Assembly (NCBI GenBank): GCA_043805855.1
Contig: JAZDHP010000012.1
Span: 1 to 27,825 of the forward strand
DNA: 27,825 nucleotides
DNA from: Candidatus Micrarchaeota archaeon
GTDB taxonomy: Archaea; Micrarchaeota; Micrarchaeia; Norongarragalinales; UBA8480
Direction: 5' to 3'
Shown: positions 12,001 through 18,000 of the stretch, piece after piece
Layout: each line of letters opens with the position of its first letter
Position numbering within the stretch: position 1 is the stretch's first letter
Position numbers: made by a program

Positions 12001-15000
12001 ATGAGTTAACTGCTTCTTCGCTTGACAATGGCGACGATTCATGGAACTACTCTGCGCGTGCACTTGAATTGAAAAGCGGCGATTACATTCAAGCGCCTTC
12101 AGGTTGCGGCGGGGGCTCAAATGTAACTCAATTTAGCGCGACGGCGCCAAACGGTGAAGTAACGTTGTGCAACTTCTTGCAGCCGAAGAACAATTGCATT
12201 GAGTCAACTAAAAACGCGTCGATTGTTTCAATTGACCAAGTTGAAACACTAACGTTTGAATTTACTAACTGCATGTATCCAGTTTTCCCGGGTGCGCCTG
12301 TATGTCCTGGGATAAAAATGGTGCTTCCTGCTGTTAACATTGGTAACTTAGAGTCAGAAGCTGAGTTTAACCCTGCGGACGCTCCGAACGCGTTTGAAAA
12401 AATCTGGGAGGGGTTCAGCGATAGAAGTAATTCAAACTTTTCGATATTTTCTTGGAGCGGGCAACTCAAATGCATTGTGCCGCCTTCAGTGCAGCAGTTT
12501 GCAATTACAGCAGCAGCTTCTGGGATTAATTTAATGCCAGGCGCAGCTGACGAGGAAGCTAAAACGAGAACCGCAGCGCCAGTAACCGCAGACGTGTGCA
12601 AACAATCGGACTTCTTTAACCTTGGAGTGATACCTAACATGGATACACTCATTCCGCTTGCGGGAGTATGCTGTCCAGAGGGGATAACCGCCCAAATTTG
12701 TACTCCAAAGCGCGGTAAATTCTTCGTTAGCTCTCGTGATAACAAAGTGAAAATAATAACCCAATGGGGTTTAACCGAAGGTTGCTACCCGTACTGGCCG
12801 TTCCCAACAACAATTAAGGGTTTAATGCAAAGCCAAAACTTGGTAAGCGCGGCGTTTGGACTTGGCGAGTTCATCACTTCCAACGGCGCGAATTTTGAAA
12901 TGTCCCTATCTTCAGAAACGCCAGGCGAAAAGCCAGTTGCCGCAGCTGGTCTGTCAAGCAAAGCATGCCGCGGTGATGGCGAATGTGCAGCTTACGAGCA
13001 ATGTGCGGTTAACTCGATTTATTCCTATAAGGGAAGCGGTGCAGGTGGAAGCGGTAAATGCGTTGGTGCTAGCTCGACTCCGGGAGTTTGTACATATTCA
13101 AACGTAAAAGAAAAAGAGAAGTGCACTGGTGGCATGCAATGTGAAACCAGCGGCGACAAAACTGCAACTTGCAAAGAATGCGGAAATGCAAACGAAGCGT
13201 CATGCTGTGTAAGCGACACCAACGCCTACTGCAAAGGACATTTAGGTTGTTTCCAAACTGGAACGGTTTTCAAGTGCACTTCTAATTGTGGTGACGAAGA
13301 GCAACCGCCATGTGCGGATACAATGTGCAATTCAGGCTTGCGTCCAACTTCTCCAACATTTACTGGCGACACAGGCAGTTCAAAATGCGTTAAGTAACTC
13401 ACTTAGCTAATCGATTCTAATTAAAAATAAGTTAAGGTATACCGCGCGTTTATTGAGTTATGGCTAGGCTAATTGTAAATCAAAAGTTAAAATTATAAAA
13501 AAAGGGAAAACGGGAACAAAAAAGAAAAGTCCCCGTTCGGAGAAAAAATTATTTTAGGTTAGCTCTTGGCCGAGGTCTCAATGAGCACAACGCTTTGCGT
13601 TGTGACTCAGTCACAATTCCGCGGAATTGTGCTGAAGGCCCGGCCTTGAGGGCCTTTGTTCTAGTACTTTATAGCGTCTAGGTTGTAGGTTGGCATTGCT
13701 GGTTTGGCGGCTACTTCGTGGCCAACAAGTTGGTCACTTTGGATGCCAGTGAGCACAGCAGTGACGACGATTTTGTCGCCCATTTCTGGAACTAAACGCG
13801 CTCCCCATTTCACGTATGCGTTTGAGTCAAACGATGAAGTTATACCTTCTCCAATTTTAACAGCTTCGCCTAGTGTTAAGTTCGAGCCACCTTGAATTAA
13901 GATGAGCCCTCCCTTTGCTCCAGCGTAGTCTACGTCAAGCAGCGGGTGTTCAAGCGTTGATTTAATAACGTCGTCAACCTTGTCGTTGCCCTTGCCTTCG
14001 CCAATGGAAATCATTGAAACTCCACCGCCTGACATGATCATCCTCAAGTCTGCGAAGTCAATGTTCATCAAGCTAGGCAGCATGATTGTGTCTGCAATGC
14101 CTTTAACTGCCCGAGCAACTAGCGTGTCTGCAACTGCAAAAGCTTGGTTCATTGGAAGATTCGGTACATAAGATACAAGGCGGTTGTTGTCGATAATTAC
14201 AACTGTGTCGCATACCTTTGTTAGTTCTTCAATTCCCCAGTCTGCTTTTGACAAACGCGCGCGTTCAAGAACAAACGGGAAAGATACAATTGCGATTGTA
14301 ATTGCTCCAGTTTTCTTTGCAATATCTGCAATAACTGGTGCTGCGCCTGTACCAGTTCCGCCTCCCATACCTGCGGTTATGAAAACTAGTTCATTATCTC
14401 CAAGTAGTTCAGCGAGTTTCTCGCGAGAGCTTTCAGCTGCTTTCATTCCAATTTCGGGAAAGCCGCCAGCGCCCATACCCTTAGTAAGGTTAGCTCCTAT
14501 AAGCACTTTTTTGTCAGCGTCAATTAGTTTCAAGTGGTTCGCGTCAGTGTTTATCGCAATGGTTCTTGCACTTTCCAAGCCCATTGATTTTAACCTGTGC
14601 ACGGTGTTTGTTCCAGCGCCTCCAACTCCAACAACGCTAATGCGAATGTCAGACGGTGCTAGGCTCTTTACTGTTTTTGGCGTCGAGTTTCTCATCGCGT
14701 CAGCAATTAATCCATCCATTTTATTTTTGATACCTCTTTTTCTCCGTTTTTTCCCTACCCTCCTTGTGTTTAGCCCGCTTTCGCGAACTATGGTTAATCA
14801 TTGCGCGTGAAAAATTAGCGCACGGATTCCTTTCTACGTTCTGCGCTATATGCAGCGCAACGAGTTTCACAACCCTGGTGGGGAATTTTGGGTTGTTCGC
14901 CCCGTTTTTTTCCTTATATTAAAAAAAATGGAAAAAATCAAAAAATAAAAAAATATAAAATTTTGAACTCTATCCTAGGATTTCAATGTCGTATCCGGGT

Positions 15001-18000
15001 TCCTTTGTGGCTTTCTTTTGAACTGGTCCATGGCCGACCACGTGTGGTGATTTAACTCCAGTTACAATTGCCGTAATCTCGAGCTTACCGTCGTAGTCTG
15101 GGATTAACCTTGCTCCCCATTTGACACTTGCGTTGGGGTCCATTTGTTCGGTTATAATTTCACCTGCTTTAATTGCATCTCCTAGTGTTAAGTCAGCGCC
15201 GCCTGCGATGTGAATAATCGCACCTTTAGCACCTGCAAAGTCAACGTCAAGCAAACGGTTCTTCATAACGCCGTTTACTGCGTCTTCAACTTTATTCGAG
15301 CCCTTGCCACTGCCTACTGCGATCATTCCAACGTCTCCATTGCCCATGATTGCCCTGACATCAGCAAAGTCAATGTTGACTAGAGAAGGTTGTGTAATGG
15401 TGAACACGAGGCCTCCGATTGCTTTGCCAAGGATTTCATCGGCAACTAGAAACGCTTGGTTCATAGGTAGGTTTGGCACAATCTCAACTAGGCGATTGTT
15501 GTCAAGTATAATTACGGAGTCTGCAACTTGGCGTAGGCGTTGAATTCCTTCGTCTGCTTTGAATACGCGAGCGCGTTCAAGTGCAAATGGATAAGAGACC
15601 ATTGCAACTACAATTGCGCCTTGTTCCTTTGCAATTTGTGAAATAATTGGCGCTGAACCAGTTCCAGTTCCGCCTCCCATACCTGCGGTTACGAAAACTA
15701 AGTGAGAGCCGCTGAGAACTTTTTCCAATTCTGGTCGGTCAACTTCTGCGCATTTAGCTCCAATTTCTGGGAACCCGCCTGCGCCAAGGCCTTTTGTTAT
15801 ACTTTTTCCAATTAGAACTTTGTGAATGCCTTCTTCCATTAGCGAAAGGTGCTGTCGGTCAGTGTTACATGCTACTAACTCTGCGCCTTTTACGCCGAGG
15901 CGTTTCAAGCGGTTAATTGTGTTATTGCCTGCTCCACCGCATCCAATTACCACTATTTTGATTTCTTCAAAATCGTCATTGTTGCTAGTAGACTTCGAAG
16001 AACCGTTGCCTTGCATTGCTGATTTTACTATATCTTCCATTTCTAAATTATCAACTCCTTTTCAGAAAAATTTTAAGTAATTATAGCCACGAGATATTTG
16101 TTTATAAATCTTTCGCCCTTTTTTTTCGATTTTTACATGGTTTTGTGTCGTTTTTTCACGACAAATAGTGGAAGTGCAGTACCTCTACCCTAAACCAATA
16201 GGTTTATATATAAATTCATATAAACAATTCTGGTGTGTTTTTCGGCACAAGGTTTAAAAGACTTGCGCCTTGATTTTTATCAAAGGTTGTTTTTGTAAGT
16301 TGAAAAATTAAAAAAATAAAATAAAAATAGAGAACAAAATAAAAAGTATTTTTGTAAGTGGTTGGAGAGTGTTGAGAAATGGCTGATTCTGAATCTTATC
16401 TTGTAACTATACCTGGCGAATGGAAGCTAGAAGAATATGCAACTACTACTCGTAAATTTCCATCTATTCAAGACTACGTGCGTGAACTAATACGCAGAGA
16501 TATAGAAGCGTACGAAAAAGAACACGGTGCGCCTGTAGAACAGACAAACGGCAACGGAAAGAAAAAGTAAAAGTTTCTGTTTGTCCACTTTTTTTGTAGT
16601 TTTTGTTTTAAACTTAAAATTCATTGCTAGTGTATATGGGTTTTTCTGTAAAAGGCGTTCCGGAGTTTGATTTTCAATATGCTGAGCTAAAGAGATCTGC
16701 TGACGAAGGTAATTATTCTAGTCAAATTTTGTTCAAGAAATTAAACAAGGCAATTGAAAAGTTGAAATTTAATTATAGGAGTGGCGAACACATCTCTAAA
16801 GATAAAATTCCAGCTTTTTATGTAGTTAATTATGGTGTTGAAAATCTCTGGAAGCTTAACCTTGATCGCGATTACCGTTTAGTTTACACTCTTCGTGGAA
16901 ATGAAGTTGAAGTTATTTCAGTTCTGCTTGAGTTCTTTGATCACAAAGCTTACAATAAACGTTTTGGTTATCGCGGTTGATTAGAGCGTAATGACTTGTT
17001 TAGAATTAGTATTTTTTTCCATATGTAGTTGCTTTGTCAAGTTTTGCATTGGTAAAAATCCAAACTATTTTGTTTTTTGCGAAGGTTATCTTATTGGATT
17101 TTTTTAGGTATTCTAAAATCACTTTTAAAGTTTGGTACATTATCCTTCCTTGTAATGATAAATAAAGTGCGGTTGGCGTTAATTCTGTTTTTGATTTTCT
17201 AATTGTTTCTTCTACTAGCAGTATTGTGTCAAGGCGAGGGTAATGTAAAACTTCCGTTTGTTGCATGCAGTTACTATTGAGTTTAATATTAATAAACTTA
17301 TCTATACTTCTTATTTTAGCAAAGGCACAAAAGGTACTCCGTCTTTTCTCCGGTGCATTTTTACGCCTAATTGTTTACATGCGGTTTCTAAATCTCTATC
17401 GAATGAACTGTTATCTTTTCTTCTGTAGAATTTGGTTAATACTGTCAGTGGAACGCCTTGCGCTTGTGTAAGTTCAATTGCGTGTTTTAGTGCTCTTATT
17501 CTCCAGCCAGCGTAGTGCGTCATTAATCCTCGCGGTGTTGTTTTGTGTGAGTAGTGCGCTTGTGCAAACCGCAGAGAAATGTTGTCGCGTAAATTTGTTA
17601 TGCTTATTGTTCCAACTGCGCCTGGATGACGCTCAGCTGGGCCGTACTTTTGTAGTTTTTTTGAACGTGCAACTCTTCTAAAATGCGGAATGTGTTCGGG
17701 GCGTGGAAAAACAACTATTTCTTCAAGAGCTACGTAGGGTTTTTCTAATTGTTTCGGCCCAACGAGAACCATTTTGCTGTCGCGCTTTATTTCTAAATGA
17801 GGATATCTTTTTCTAGCGTGTGTTTCGTTTTTCCAAGCTTGTCGCGCAGCTTTGTAATATTCGGGTAACTTTAGCATTTGTATTAATTGAATTATTTTTT
17901 TGTAGTAGTTTATCGGCCTCTAGCGCTTCCGTGCATTGCTCCTTGTCCTCGTCTTACGTAATCTCGAGCGTATTGGAAACCTAGATGTACGGGGTGAAAG

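What a model noticed while it worked through the whole genome (the two positions that open the first line are those of the whole stretch)
13661..16040. Four FtsZ genes: one FtsZ1 and three fixed FtsZ2 lineages, order-wide
Besides FtsZ1 (C28:11223-12311) the genome has three FtsZ2 genes, two in tandem here and one at C1:973-2094, only 53-58% identical. They are three old orthologous lineages kept across the order, against the two-FtsZ rule for archaea.
Evidence so far: Each copy pairs one-to-one with a G006 gene of another family at 67-76% identity, support 0.998-1.0, and all keep GGGTGTG and the T7 NxDFAD loop. FtsZ_C search: 33 of 34 order genomes at least 85% complete have 4 or more (31 exactly 4). 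The tandem pair is recorded in 43 of 67 order genomes.
(Added by a program. Inside this text positions count along the whole contig: contig position 1 is position 1 of the stretch shown here. "Call 12" and the like, gene names such as g00115 and contig names such as C1 are that model's own, and its searches are not shown. The text may have been shortened before it was handed on; [...] marks where a part breaks off. The agent that wrote the report below was given it as the finding of a first reader that could run no searches.)

Follow-up and report, generated by a model that had tools for sequence, protein, structure and literature searches.

The report
Three FtsZ2 lineages in Micrarchaeota
A whole phylum of tiny, small-genome archaea has kept three ancient versions of the cell-division protein FtsZ2 where most archaea have one, which suggests a division ring built from more specialised subunits; the extra copies were already listed in supplementary files of earlier papers, but I found no paper that discusses them.

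Summary
Real, and wider than reported. The two window genes (B, 14970-16040; A, 13661-14719) and a third copy (C) are intact FtsZ2 paralogues; the fourth gene is FtsZ1. The organism is a Micrarchaeota (relatives named Norongarragalinales). The pattern is phylum-wide: 220 of 399 genomes have four FtsZ, 134 have three; in a control phylum 23 of 26 have two. A and B are strongly supported clades, C a weaker one, so the duplications date to the phylum's ancestor or earlier. A and B are in 43 of 43 classified genomes, in the order B then A when adjacent; C is missing in all 15 three-copy genomes (about six losses). B is the most conserved, keeps the SepF-type tail and co-duplicates with sepF: probably the main constricting subunit, with A its co-expressed partner and C optional. 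A published proteome of cultured Microcaldus detects both tandem proteins. Roles and co-polymerisation are untested. The counts and clades sit unremarked in supplements of Pende 2021 and Santana-Molina 2023, and this scan noted the tandem pair before on other genomes. New variant of the known dual-FtsZ system.

The parts
14970..16040 (-). ftsZ2-B, 356 aa: upstream gene of the tandem, the most conserved FtsZ2 lineage, probable main SepF-anchored subunit
   Evidence: TIGR00065 372 bits; clade 100/100; mean identity 0.76; tail motif 46 of 46; dN 0.05, dS 2.0
13661..14719 (-). ftsZ2-A, 352 aa: downstream gene of the tandem, present in every classified genome, faster evolving, tail degenerate in about a third
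   Evidence: 386 bits; clade 100/99; mean identity 0.60; tail motif 27 of 42; dN 0.11, dS 1.35
15360..15377 (-). T7 catalytic loop of B (N222-D227), intact
   Evidence: sequence; invariant in 46 of 46 B
14048..14065 (-). T7 catalytic loop of A (N219-D224), intact here
   Evidence: sequence; N/D/D in 39 of 42 A
14973..14993 (-). C-terminal tail motif of B (Y-D-I-E-I-L-G), like the archaeal 'GID' SepF-binding motif
   Evidence: the GID motif as described in PMC8178401; binding itself is inferred
15664..15691 (-). 28 bases identical to 14352-14379 over the GTP-binding loop: probable short gene-conversion patch (copy in B)
14352..14379 (-). the same 28-base patch (copy in A)
14720..14969 (-). 250-base spacer between B and A with a long T-rich run on the coding strand just after B's stop; A may have its own promoter in this genome (inference)
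   Evidence: sequence; the bacterial-type scan is not built for archaeal promoters
16379..16570 (+). 63-aa ribbon-helix-helix-like ORF divergent from B, weakly like CdrS; found in part of the order only
   Evidence: hhalign probability 51, E 1.5e-4; 13 of 27 order genomes scored, no strong hit in 174 others

Best explanation
The single ancestral archaeal FtsZ2 was duplicated twice at or before the last common ancestor of Micrarchaeota, giving lineages A, B and C beside FtsZ1 (shown by trees and counts). The copies were kept because they split the FtsZ2 job in the division ring (inferred). FtsZ1 builds the scaffold, as in Haloferax. B is the main constricting subunit, tied to the membrane through the single SepF by its conserved tail. 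A is a co-expressed partner that works in the same ring, probably co-assembling with B and changing filament turnover or curvature, and relying less on its own tail. C is an accessory GTPase-intact copy, closest to the FtsZ2 of the sister group, that many lineages do without. Shown: orthology, age, gene order, purifying selection, rate and tail differences, repeated loss of C, protein-level expression of the tandem pair in one cultured member. Inferred: every statement about role, SepF binding and co-assembly.
For: A and B in 43 of 43 classified genomes from 29 family codes plus one genome named Anstonellaceae; C in 28 of 43; all 15 three-copy genomes lack C (genomes chosen by me to cover families and both copy numbers). 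Clades: A 100/99, B 100/100; A+B+C with Altiarchaeota and Diapherotrites FtsZ2 100/97. B before A in 95 of 95 locus records that hold both (some genomes counted twice); tandem in 32 of 36 sampled genomes outside the order. dN/dS about 0.08 (A), 0.03 (B), 0.07 (C) against close relatives. T7 N/D/D in 46 of 46 B, 27 of 27 C, 39 of 42 A. SepF is single in 145 of 149 genomes (two unpublished genomes left out); tail motif in B 46 of 46, A 27 of 42, C 17 of 27, FtsZ1 41 of 43. In G062 an extra B copy follows a PRC-barrel-like gene and a second sepF on one strand (L291). sepF lies about 3 kb downstream of the tandem in several f13/f14 genomes. In Microcaldus ARM-1 two tandem ftsZ genes are 11 bases apart (PMC8784108 Dataset S4), and the proteome holds both: summed iBAQ 8.3e9 (upstream gene, B by gene order) and 4.4e9 (downstream, A), against 3.6e9 for the protein annotated ftsZ1 and 3.1e9 for SepF (PMC11329633). 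FtsZ2 drives constriction in Haloferax and binds SepF by its tail in Odinarchaeota.
Against: No localisation, genetics or biochemistry exists for any of these proteins. The tail test is a loose pattern of my own that FtsZ1 also passes, so it does not single out SepF binders. C's monophyly is weak (78/57, 93/86). No fused A-B protein was found among longer proteins (a weak negative). The tandem is broken in all three sampled f19 genomes and one f21 genome, so linkage is not required. B:A is about 2:1 in the one proteome, not 1:1, and which tandem gene is B there rests on gene order alone. The 250-base spacer with a T-rich run suggests A is not strictly co-transcribed here. Three A copies have lost a T7 residue.
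Confidence: 0.6

Rival explanations
1. A and B form an obligate heteropolymer (alternating or fixed-ratio), an independent parallel to alpha/beta-tubulin, BtubA/B or plastid FtsZ1/FtsZ2 (those comparisons are recalled).
For: Neither A nor B is missing from any of 43 genomes, and the order B>A is constant. Fixed differences between lineages are rarer on the nucleotide-binding face (2 of 60 columns) than on the T7/H10 face (8 of 54), Fisher p 0.045. Ca. Altiarchaeum encodes two FtsZ2-type domains in one 826-aa chain.
Against: The faces were defined from recalled FtsZ nomenclature plus the model's secondary structure; the T7/H10 face is not enriched over the rest of the protein (p 0.11), columns are not independent, and gene conversion also homogenises the GTP-binding half. 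Both keep catalytic residues in most genomes. The Altiarchaeum domains group with other Altiarchaeota, not with A or B. Abundance is about 2:1.
Confidence: 0.22
2. One or more copies (A or C) left cell division for a shape or host-contact role, as CetZ proteins did in haloarchaea.
For: The own genome has no CetZ or other tubulin-family gene. A and C evolve faster and have degenerate tails. C is lost lineage by lineage, as a lifestyle gene might be. ARM-1 cells show unexplained sub-membrane filament stacks and cages (PMC11329633).
Against: A and C keep full FtsZ2 signatures and the FtsZ_C domain. A is mostly adjacent to B. No conserved motility or surface gene was found next to A or C. Nothing links the ARM-1 filaments to FtsZ; that paper does not mention FtsZ in its main text.
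Confidence: 0.12
3. The copies are near-redundant and kept for gene dosage or differential regulation, with no biochemical specialisation.
For: All are GTPase-intact FtsZ2; short gene conversions between them are tolerated (exact shared stretches of 24 bases or more in 14 of 42 within-genome A/B pairs against 10 of 1722 cross-genome pairs); FtsZ2 copies together outnumber FtsZ1 about 3.5 to 1 in ARM-1.
Against: Lineage-specific fixed residues and unequal rates have persisted across the phylum; genomes of 0.5-1.8 Mb are not expected to hold redundant paralogues since the phylum's origin (inference); conversion stays confined to short conserved patches.
Confidence: 0.05
4. Binning artefact, or recent independent duplications or transfers.
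For: Nearly all genomes are metagenome-assembled.
Against: Three single-contig genomes (G103, G107, G169) carry all four; each lineage repeats the same family groupings; GC and GC3 of the four own genes are alike.
Confidence: 0.01

Closest known systems
Archaeal dual FtsZ1/FtsZ2 system with SepF and CdpB (Haloferax volcanii; Odinarchaeota)
   Same: One FtsZ1, FtsZ2-family proteins with intact GTPase motifs, one SepF, PRC-barrel genes (three PF05239 matches in the own genome).
   Different: FtsZ2 is present as three ancient lineages, two of them kept as a tandem; one SepF serves up to four FtsZ tails of unequal conservation.
Multi-copy FtsZ entries in Pende et al. 2021 (PMC8178401) and the extended tree of Santana-Molina et al. 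2023 (PMC9871819)
   Same: List the same 3-5 copies per Micrarchaeota genome; the text of the supplementary tree shows the FtsZ2 copies in separate multi-order groups with Altiarchaeota between them.
   Different: In the passages and sections I read, neither names or discusses the three lineages, the tandem, the losses of C or their possible roles; Santana-Molina states that most archaea have two copies.
Truncated FtsZ paralogues of Hyphomicrobiales (PMC13732431)
   Same: Ancient FtsZ duplicates kept across families and proposed to tune division.
   Different: Those are mostly truncated and bacterial; A, B and C are full length with tails.
CetZ family
   Same: Archaeal expansion of the tubulin/FtsZ family with possible division of labour.
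   Different: A, B and C are canonical FtsZ2 by tree, TIGR00065 and FtsZ_C domain; no CetZ in this genome.
cdrS-ftsZ2 locus (PMC7439475)
   Same: A small RHH-like gene sits next to ftsZ2-B.
   Different: Divergent instead of co-transcribed, only weakly similar, limited to part of one order; that paper found no cdrS-ftsZ2 locus in DPANN.

Membership tests
FtsZ | Full-length match above the curated ftsZ cut-off, with GTPase and C-terminal domains | tested here: met
FtsZ | GGGTG[TS]G loop and T7 N-x-D-x-x-D | tested here: met
   all four own genes; exceptions elsewhere in the phylum listed
FtsZ | GTP-dependent polymerisation and ring formation at midcell | not testable with these tools
   needs purified protein or microscopy
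Archaeal FtsZ2 | Branches with reference FtsZ2, apart from FtsZ1 and bacterial FtsZ | tested here: met
   FtsZ2 clade 100/98.
Archaeal FtsZ2 | Family-specific residues near the nucleotide site and interface | tested here: met
   A, B, C share GAGG, ERxR, DNNxL and PS[LM]xN with the reference FtsZ2, against GAGS, PNDKL and KxGxVN in FtsZ1; the published residue list (Liao Fig. S1) was not available
Archaeal FtsZ2 | C-terminal GID-type tail that binds SepF | tested here: inconclusive
   loose motif in B 46 of 46, A 27 of 42, C 17 of 27; binding not measured
Archaeal FtsZ2 | Required for constriction | not testable with these tools
   no genetics for Micrarchaeota
Archaeal FtsZ1 (the C28 gene) | Branches with FtsZ1 and lies among translation genes | tested here: met
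   two neighbour families recur in 26 genomes; their names SecE and Spt5/NusG, and L11 nearby, are my reading from recall
CetZ | Lacks the FtsZ_C domain and branches outside FtsZ1/FtsZ2 | tested here: not met
CdrS (ORF 16379-16570) | Co-oriented directly upstream of ftsZ2 | tested here: not met
   divergent from B here and in relatives
CdrS (ORF 16379-16570) | RHH fold and sequence likeness to CdrS | tested here: inconclusive
   hhalign probability 51, E 1.5e-4; no Pfam or NCBIfam hit; model has two helices, best fold hit NikR at E 7.3

The most novel reading that the evidence does not exclude
FtsZ2-A and FtsZ2-B of Micrarchaeota are the two subunits of a heteromeric filament, an independent origin in archaea of a two-subunit tubulin-family polymer, evolved to divide very small wall-less cells; the fused double FtsZ2 of Altiarchaeum would be a convergent solution in a related phylum.
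Probability: 0.22. Interest if true: 0.8.

Novelty: new variant of a known kind. Interest (0 to 1): 0.55.

Why it matters
How a wall-less archaeal cell generates constriction force with FtsZ2 is an open question (PMC7617429). Here a phylum with genomes of about 1 Mb carries more division FtsZs than free-living model archaea, and nature has run the deletions: A and B were never found missing, C was lost about six times. That gives a ranked set of subunits to purify and compare, and a cultured member (Microcaldus ARM-1) already shown to make both tandem proteins. If A and B co-polymerise, it is a new, tractable case of how heteromeric tubulin-family filaments arise. It also matters for annotation and trees: Micrarchaeota FtsZ2 copies are paralogues and must not be mixed.

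Tried and rejected
Order-specific expansion: rejected. Artefact or recent duplication: rejected. That three-copy genomes hide a truncated C missed by the FtsZ_C model: a GTPase-domain search of 34 three-copy genomes found a fourth match in 3; one is a degenerate full-length FtsZ2 scoring about equally with C and A, two are truncated, highly diverged fragments that cannot be assigned. That the Altiarchaeum double protein is a fused B-A pair: not supported, its halves group with other Altiarchaeota (long branches, weak support). Search for fused forms among longer proteins: none from Micrarchaeota among 43 hits, a weak negative. Whether the duplications predate the split from Diapherotrites: the free tree puts Diapherotrites FtsZ2 with C (86/84), but an AU test does not reject A+B+C as one clade (p 0.18), so unresolved. 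Complex prediction of SepF dimer with the A tail: no answer, score 0.04 (ticket, result); not used as evidence either way. RNA runs for the locus: none was listed. PDB sequence searches gave only FtsZ structures and do not separate FtsZ1 from FtsZ2. The ESM Atlas gave only unnamed small-protein clusters for the RHH-like ORF. The first homologue search returned 120 close relatives, named Micrarchaeota where named, and gave no outgroup. Rows dropped: five fragments under 250 aa and one duplicate before the tree; one cut FtsZ1 in the tail count; four extra in-paralogues; two unpublished genomes from the tallies.
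Full report
Observation. The window (G000:C12) carries two full-length ftsZ genes in tandem on the minus strand: B at 14970-16040 and A at 13661-14719. 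The own genome (1.03 Mb, 92% complete) has exactly two more, C at C1:973-2094 and a fourth at C28:11223-12311, and no other tubulin-family gene. A, B and C are 53-59% identical to each other and 40-43% to the fourth. All keep the GTP-binding loop and the T7 catalytic residues. Relatives of A at 65-84% identity are titled Micrarchaeota, some Norongarragalinales.

Range. In the order, 33 of 34 genomes at least 85% complete have four or more FtsZ_C matches, and 56 of the 67 other genomes show the tandem by my hand count. The pattern does not stop there. Of 401 phylum genomes at least 80% complete, two unpublished ones left out, 220 of 399 have four matches, 134 three, 19 five or six and 26 one or two; among 188 genomes at least 90% complete, 111 have four and 60 three (matches are not strict copy numbers). 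Three is the rule in some families (f19 71 of 80, f21 13 of 17, f20 5 of 7), four in others (f14 64 of 81, f13 62 of 88, f12 21 of 33). In a control phylum 23 of 26 genomes have two.

Orthology. I extracted all FtsZ genes from 43 Micrarchaeota genomes, chosen to cover 29 family codes and both copy numbers. Every genome has FtsZ1, A and B; 28 have C; all 15 three-copy genomes lack C (one gene that BLAST called C falls in A in the tree). FastTree on 196 proteins gives B 99, A 98, C 94. IQ-TREE with a mixture model on subsets gives A 100/95 and 100/99, B 100/100, C 93/86 and 78/57. A, B and C lie inside the FtsZ2 clade (100/98) and share its motifs. With proteins named Altiarchaeota and Diapherotrites they form one branch (100/97); Diapherotrites join C at 86/84, but the data do not reject A+B+C as one clade (AU p 0.18). 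The duplications are therefore at least as old as the phylum and possibly older. On a concatenated FtsZ tree, which is not an independent species tree, presence of C changes six times, four of them forced by strong branches; the earliest branches have C, so these are read as losses. A GTPase-domain search of 34 three-copy genomes found a fourth match in only three: one degenerate full-length copy and two unassignable fragments.

How the lineages differ. Among 26 genomes with all four, mean identity between genomes is 0.76 for B, 0.63 for FtsZ1, 0.61 for C and 0.60 for A. All three are under purifying selection: dN/dS about 0.08, 0.03 and 0.07 for A, B and C against close relatives. T7 residues are intact in 46 of 46 B, 27 of 27 C and 39 of 42 A; the GGGTG[TS]G loop is changed, mostly to GGGTGGG, in 6 A, 7 B and 1 C. 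A loose acidic-hydrophobic tail motif is in 46 of 46 B, 27 of 42 A, 17 of 27 C and 41 of 43 FtsZ1. SepF is single in 145 of 149 genomes, double in three and not found in one. In G062, which has two, the second sepF sits between a PRC-barrel-like gene and an extra B copy (L291; the PRC label is my reading and matches the operon noted in PMC10120694). B precedes A in 95 of 95 locus records holding both; the tandem is kept in 32 of 36 genomes outside the order and broken in three f19 and one f21 genome. Fixed differences fall more often on the T7/H10 face (8 of 54 columns) than on the nucleotide face (2 of 60), p 0.045, but not more than in the rest of the protein (p 0.11); the faces are defined from recall. 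A and B exchange short patches: exact shared stretches of 24 bases or more occur in 14 of 42 within-genome pairs against 10 of 1722 cross-genome pairs, including 28 bases here, as an earlier scan note had said.

Expression. No RNA run was listed for this locus. In the cultured Micrarchaeota Microcaldus ARM-1, Dataset S4 of PMC8784108 lists four ftsZ genes, two in tandem 11 bases apart and one short. The proteome in PMC11329633 detects all four: summed iBAQ 8.3e9 for the upstream tandem gene, 4.4e9 for the downstream one, 3.6e9 for the one annotated ftsZ1, 0.4e9 for the short one, and 3.1e9 for SepF (I matched accessions to locus tags by order and mass). Calling the upstream gene B rests on gene order.

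Mechanism. In Haloferax FtsZ1 scaffolds and FtsZ2 constricts (bioRxiv 2020.06.04.133736); in Odinarchaeota FtsZ2 binds SepF by its tail (PMC12583498). I infer that B carries the canonical SepF-anchored constricting role, that A works with it in the same ring as a modulating partner, and that C is accessory (confidence 0.6). An obligate A-B heteropolymer (0.22), a non-division role for A or C (0.12) and plain dosage (0.05) are the rivals. None of the roles is shown.

Neighbours. A 63-aa RHH-like ORF at 16379-16570 faces away from B; it is weakly like the RHH genes upstream of reference ftsZ2 (hhalign probability 51), was found in 13 of 27 order genomes scored and gave only two weak matches among 174 others. 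It is not filed as CdrS.

What is known. Pende et al. 2021 (PMC8178401; passages, and part 1 of 3 of Supplementary Data 1) lists 3, 4, 4, 5 and 4 FtsZ for five Micrarchaeota, and three for some Woesearchaeota, Diapherotrites and Aenigmarchaeota; its figure legend notes frequent multiple copies. Santana-Molina et al. 2023 (PMC9871819; passages, section 6 whole, text of one part of the supplementary tree) says most archaea have two copies, while its supplementary tree holds the Micrarchaeota FtsZ2 copies in separate groups. I saw passages only of PMC10120694, PMC7439475, PMC12583498, PMC7617429, PMC12133352, PMC13732431, PMC9856176, PMC8407392, bioRxiv 2023.03.28.534543 and 2026.07.16.738847; passages and supplement rows of PMC8784108 and PMC11329633; passages and the Discussion of the Liao preprint. 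Eight full-text searches turned up no paper that describes three FtsZ2 lineages, the tandem or the losses; the library lacks most subscription papers.

Verdict. A real, phylum-wide, ancient triplication of FtsZ2 with unequal constraint and repeated loss of one copy. The raw fact is latent in print; the lineage structure and the ranking of subunits are, as far as I could search, undescribed. New variant of a known kind; interest 0.55.

Noticed in passing
P0121, P0313, P0122, P0285: Altiarchaeota encode two FtsZ2-type domains in one chain (826 aa in Ca. Altiarchaeum hamiconexum, a 23-member cluster from several sources; 744-834 aa in others), joined by a Q/P-rich linker in P0121. The halves group with other Altiarchaeota. 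One literature search and one scan look-up found no description.
   Followed up: partly
L291:2940-4794: PRC-barrel-like gene, second sepF and an extra ftsZ2-B in a row on one strand in G062: a duplicated mini division module. A second extra B copy in G004 (L301) follows dnaK-dnaJ-like genes with no sepF.
   Followed up: partly
window 14352-14379 and 15664-15691: Short gene-conversion patches between paralogues, here 28 bases; up to 89 bases in other genomes; also seen in a few A/C and B/C pairs.
   Followed up: yes
window 16379-16570: RHH-like ORF divergent from ftsZ2-B in families f1, f7, f8, f10; a candidate division regulator in a DPANN lineage where cdrS was reported absent.
   Followed up: partly
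P0149, P0174, P0325, P0336, P0338-P0340: FtsZ1-type proteins with an intein-like insert, in the two I read placed inside the GGGTGTG loop; several carry intein and LAGLIDADG Pfam matches.
   Followed up: no
window 20702-22453: ATP-dependent DNA ligase; a ligase gene recurs within about 4 kb of the tandem in 21 genomes or loci from 8 family groups.
   Followed up: no
window 8607-13397: 1596-aa protein with a hydrophobic stretch near the N terminus, carboxypeptidase-regulatory-like domains and a cysteine-rich end, convergent with ftsZ2-A; probable surface protein.
   Followed up: no
window 1595-4402, 6922-7497, 16624-16980, 26410-27672: Two tandem AAA_14/DUF4143 ATPases, a weak AbiEi-like antitoxin, a weak ParE-like ORF and a XerA-like integrase.
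   Followed up: no
loci (results): Three of 34 three-copy genomes hold a fourth, diverged FtsZ-like frame: one full length, two GTPase-only and lacking the T7 loop, recalling truncated bacterial FtsZ paralogues.
   Followed up: partly
L114, L180, L193: Three A copies have lost a T7 catalytic residue, so A may be turning catalytically impaired in some lineages.
   Followed up: no
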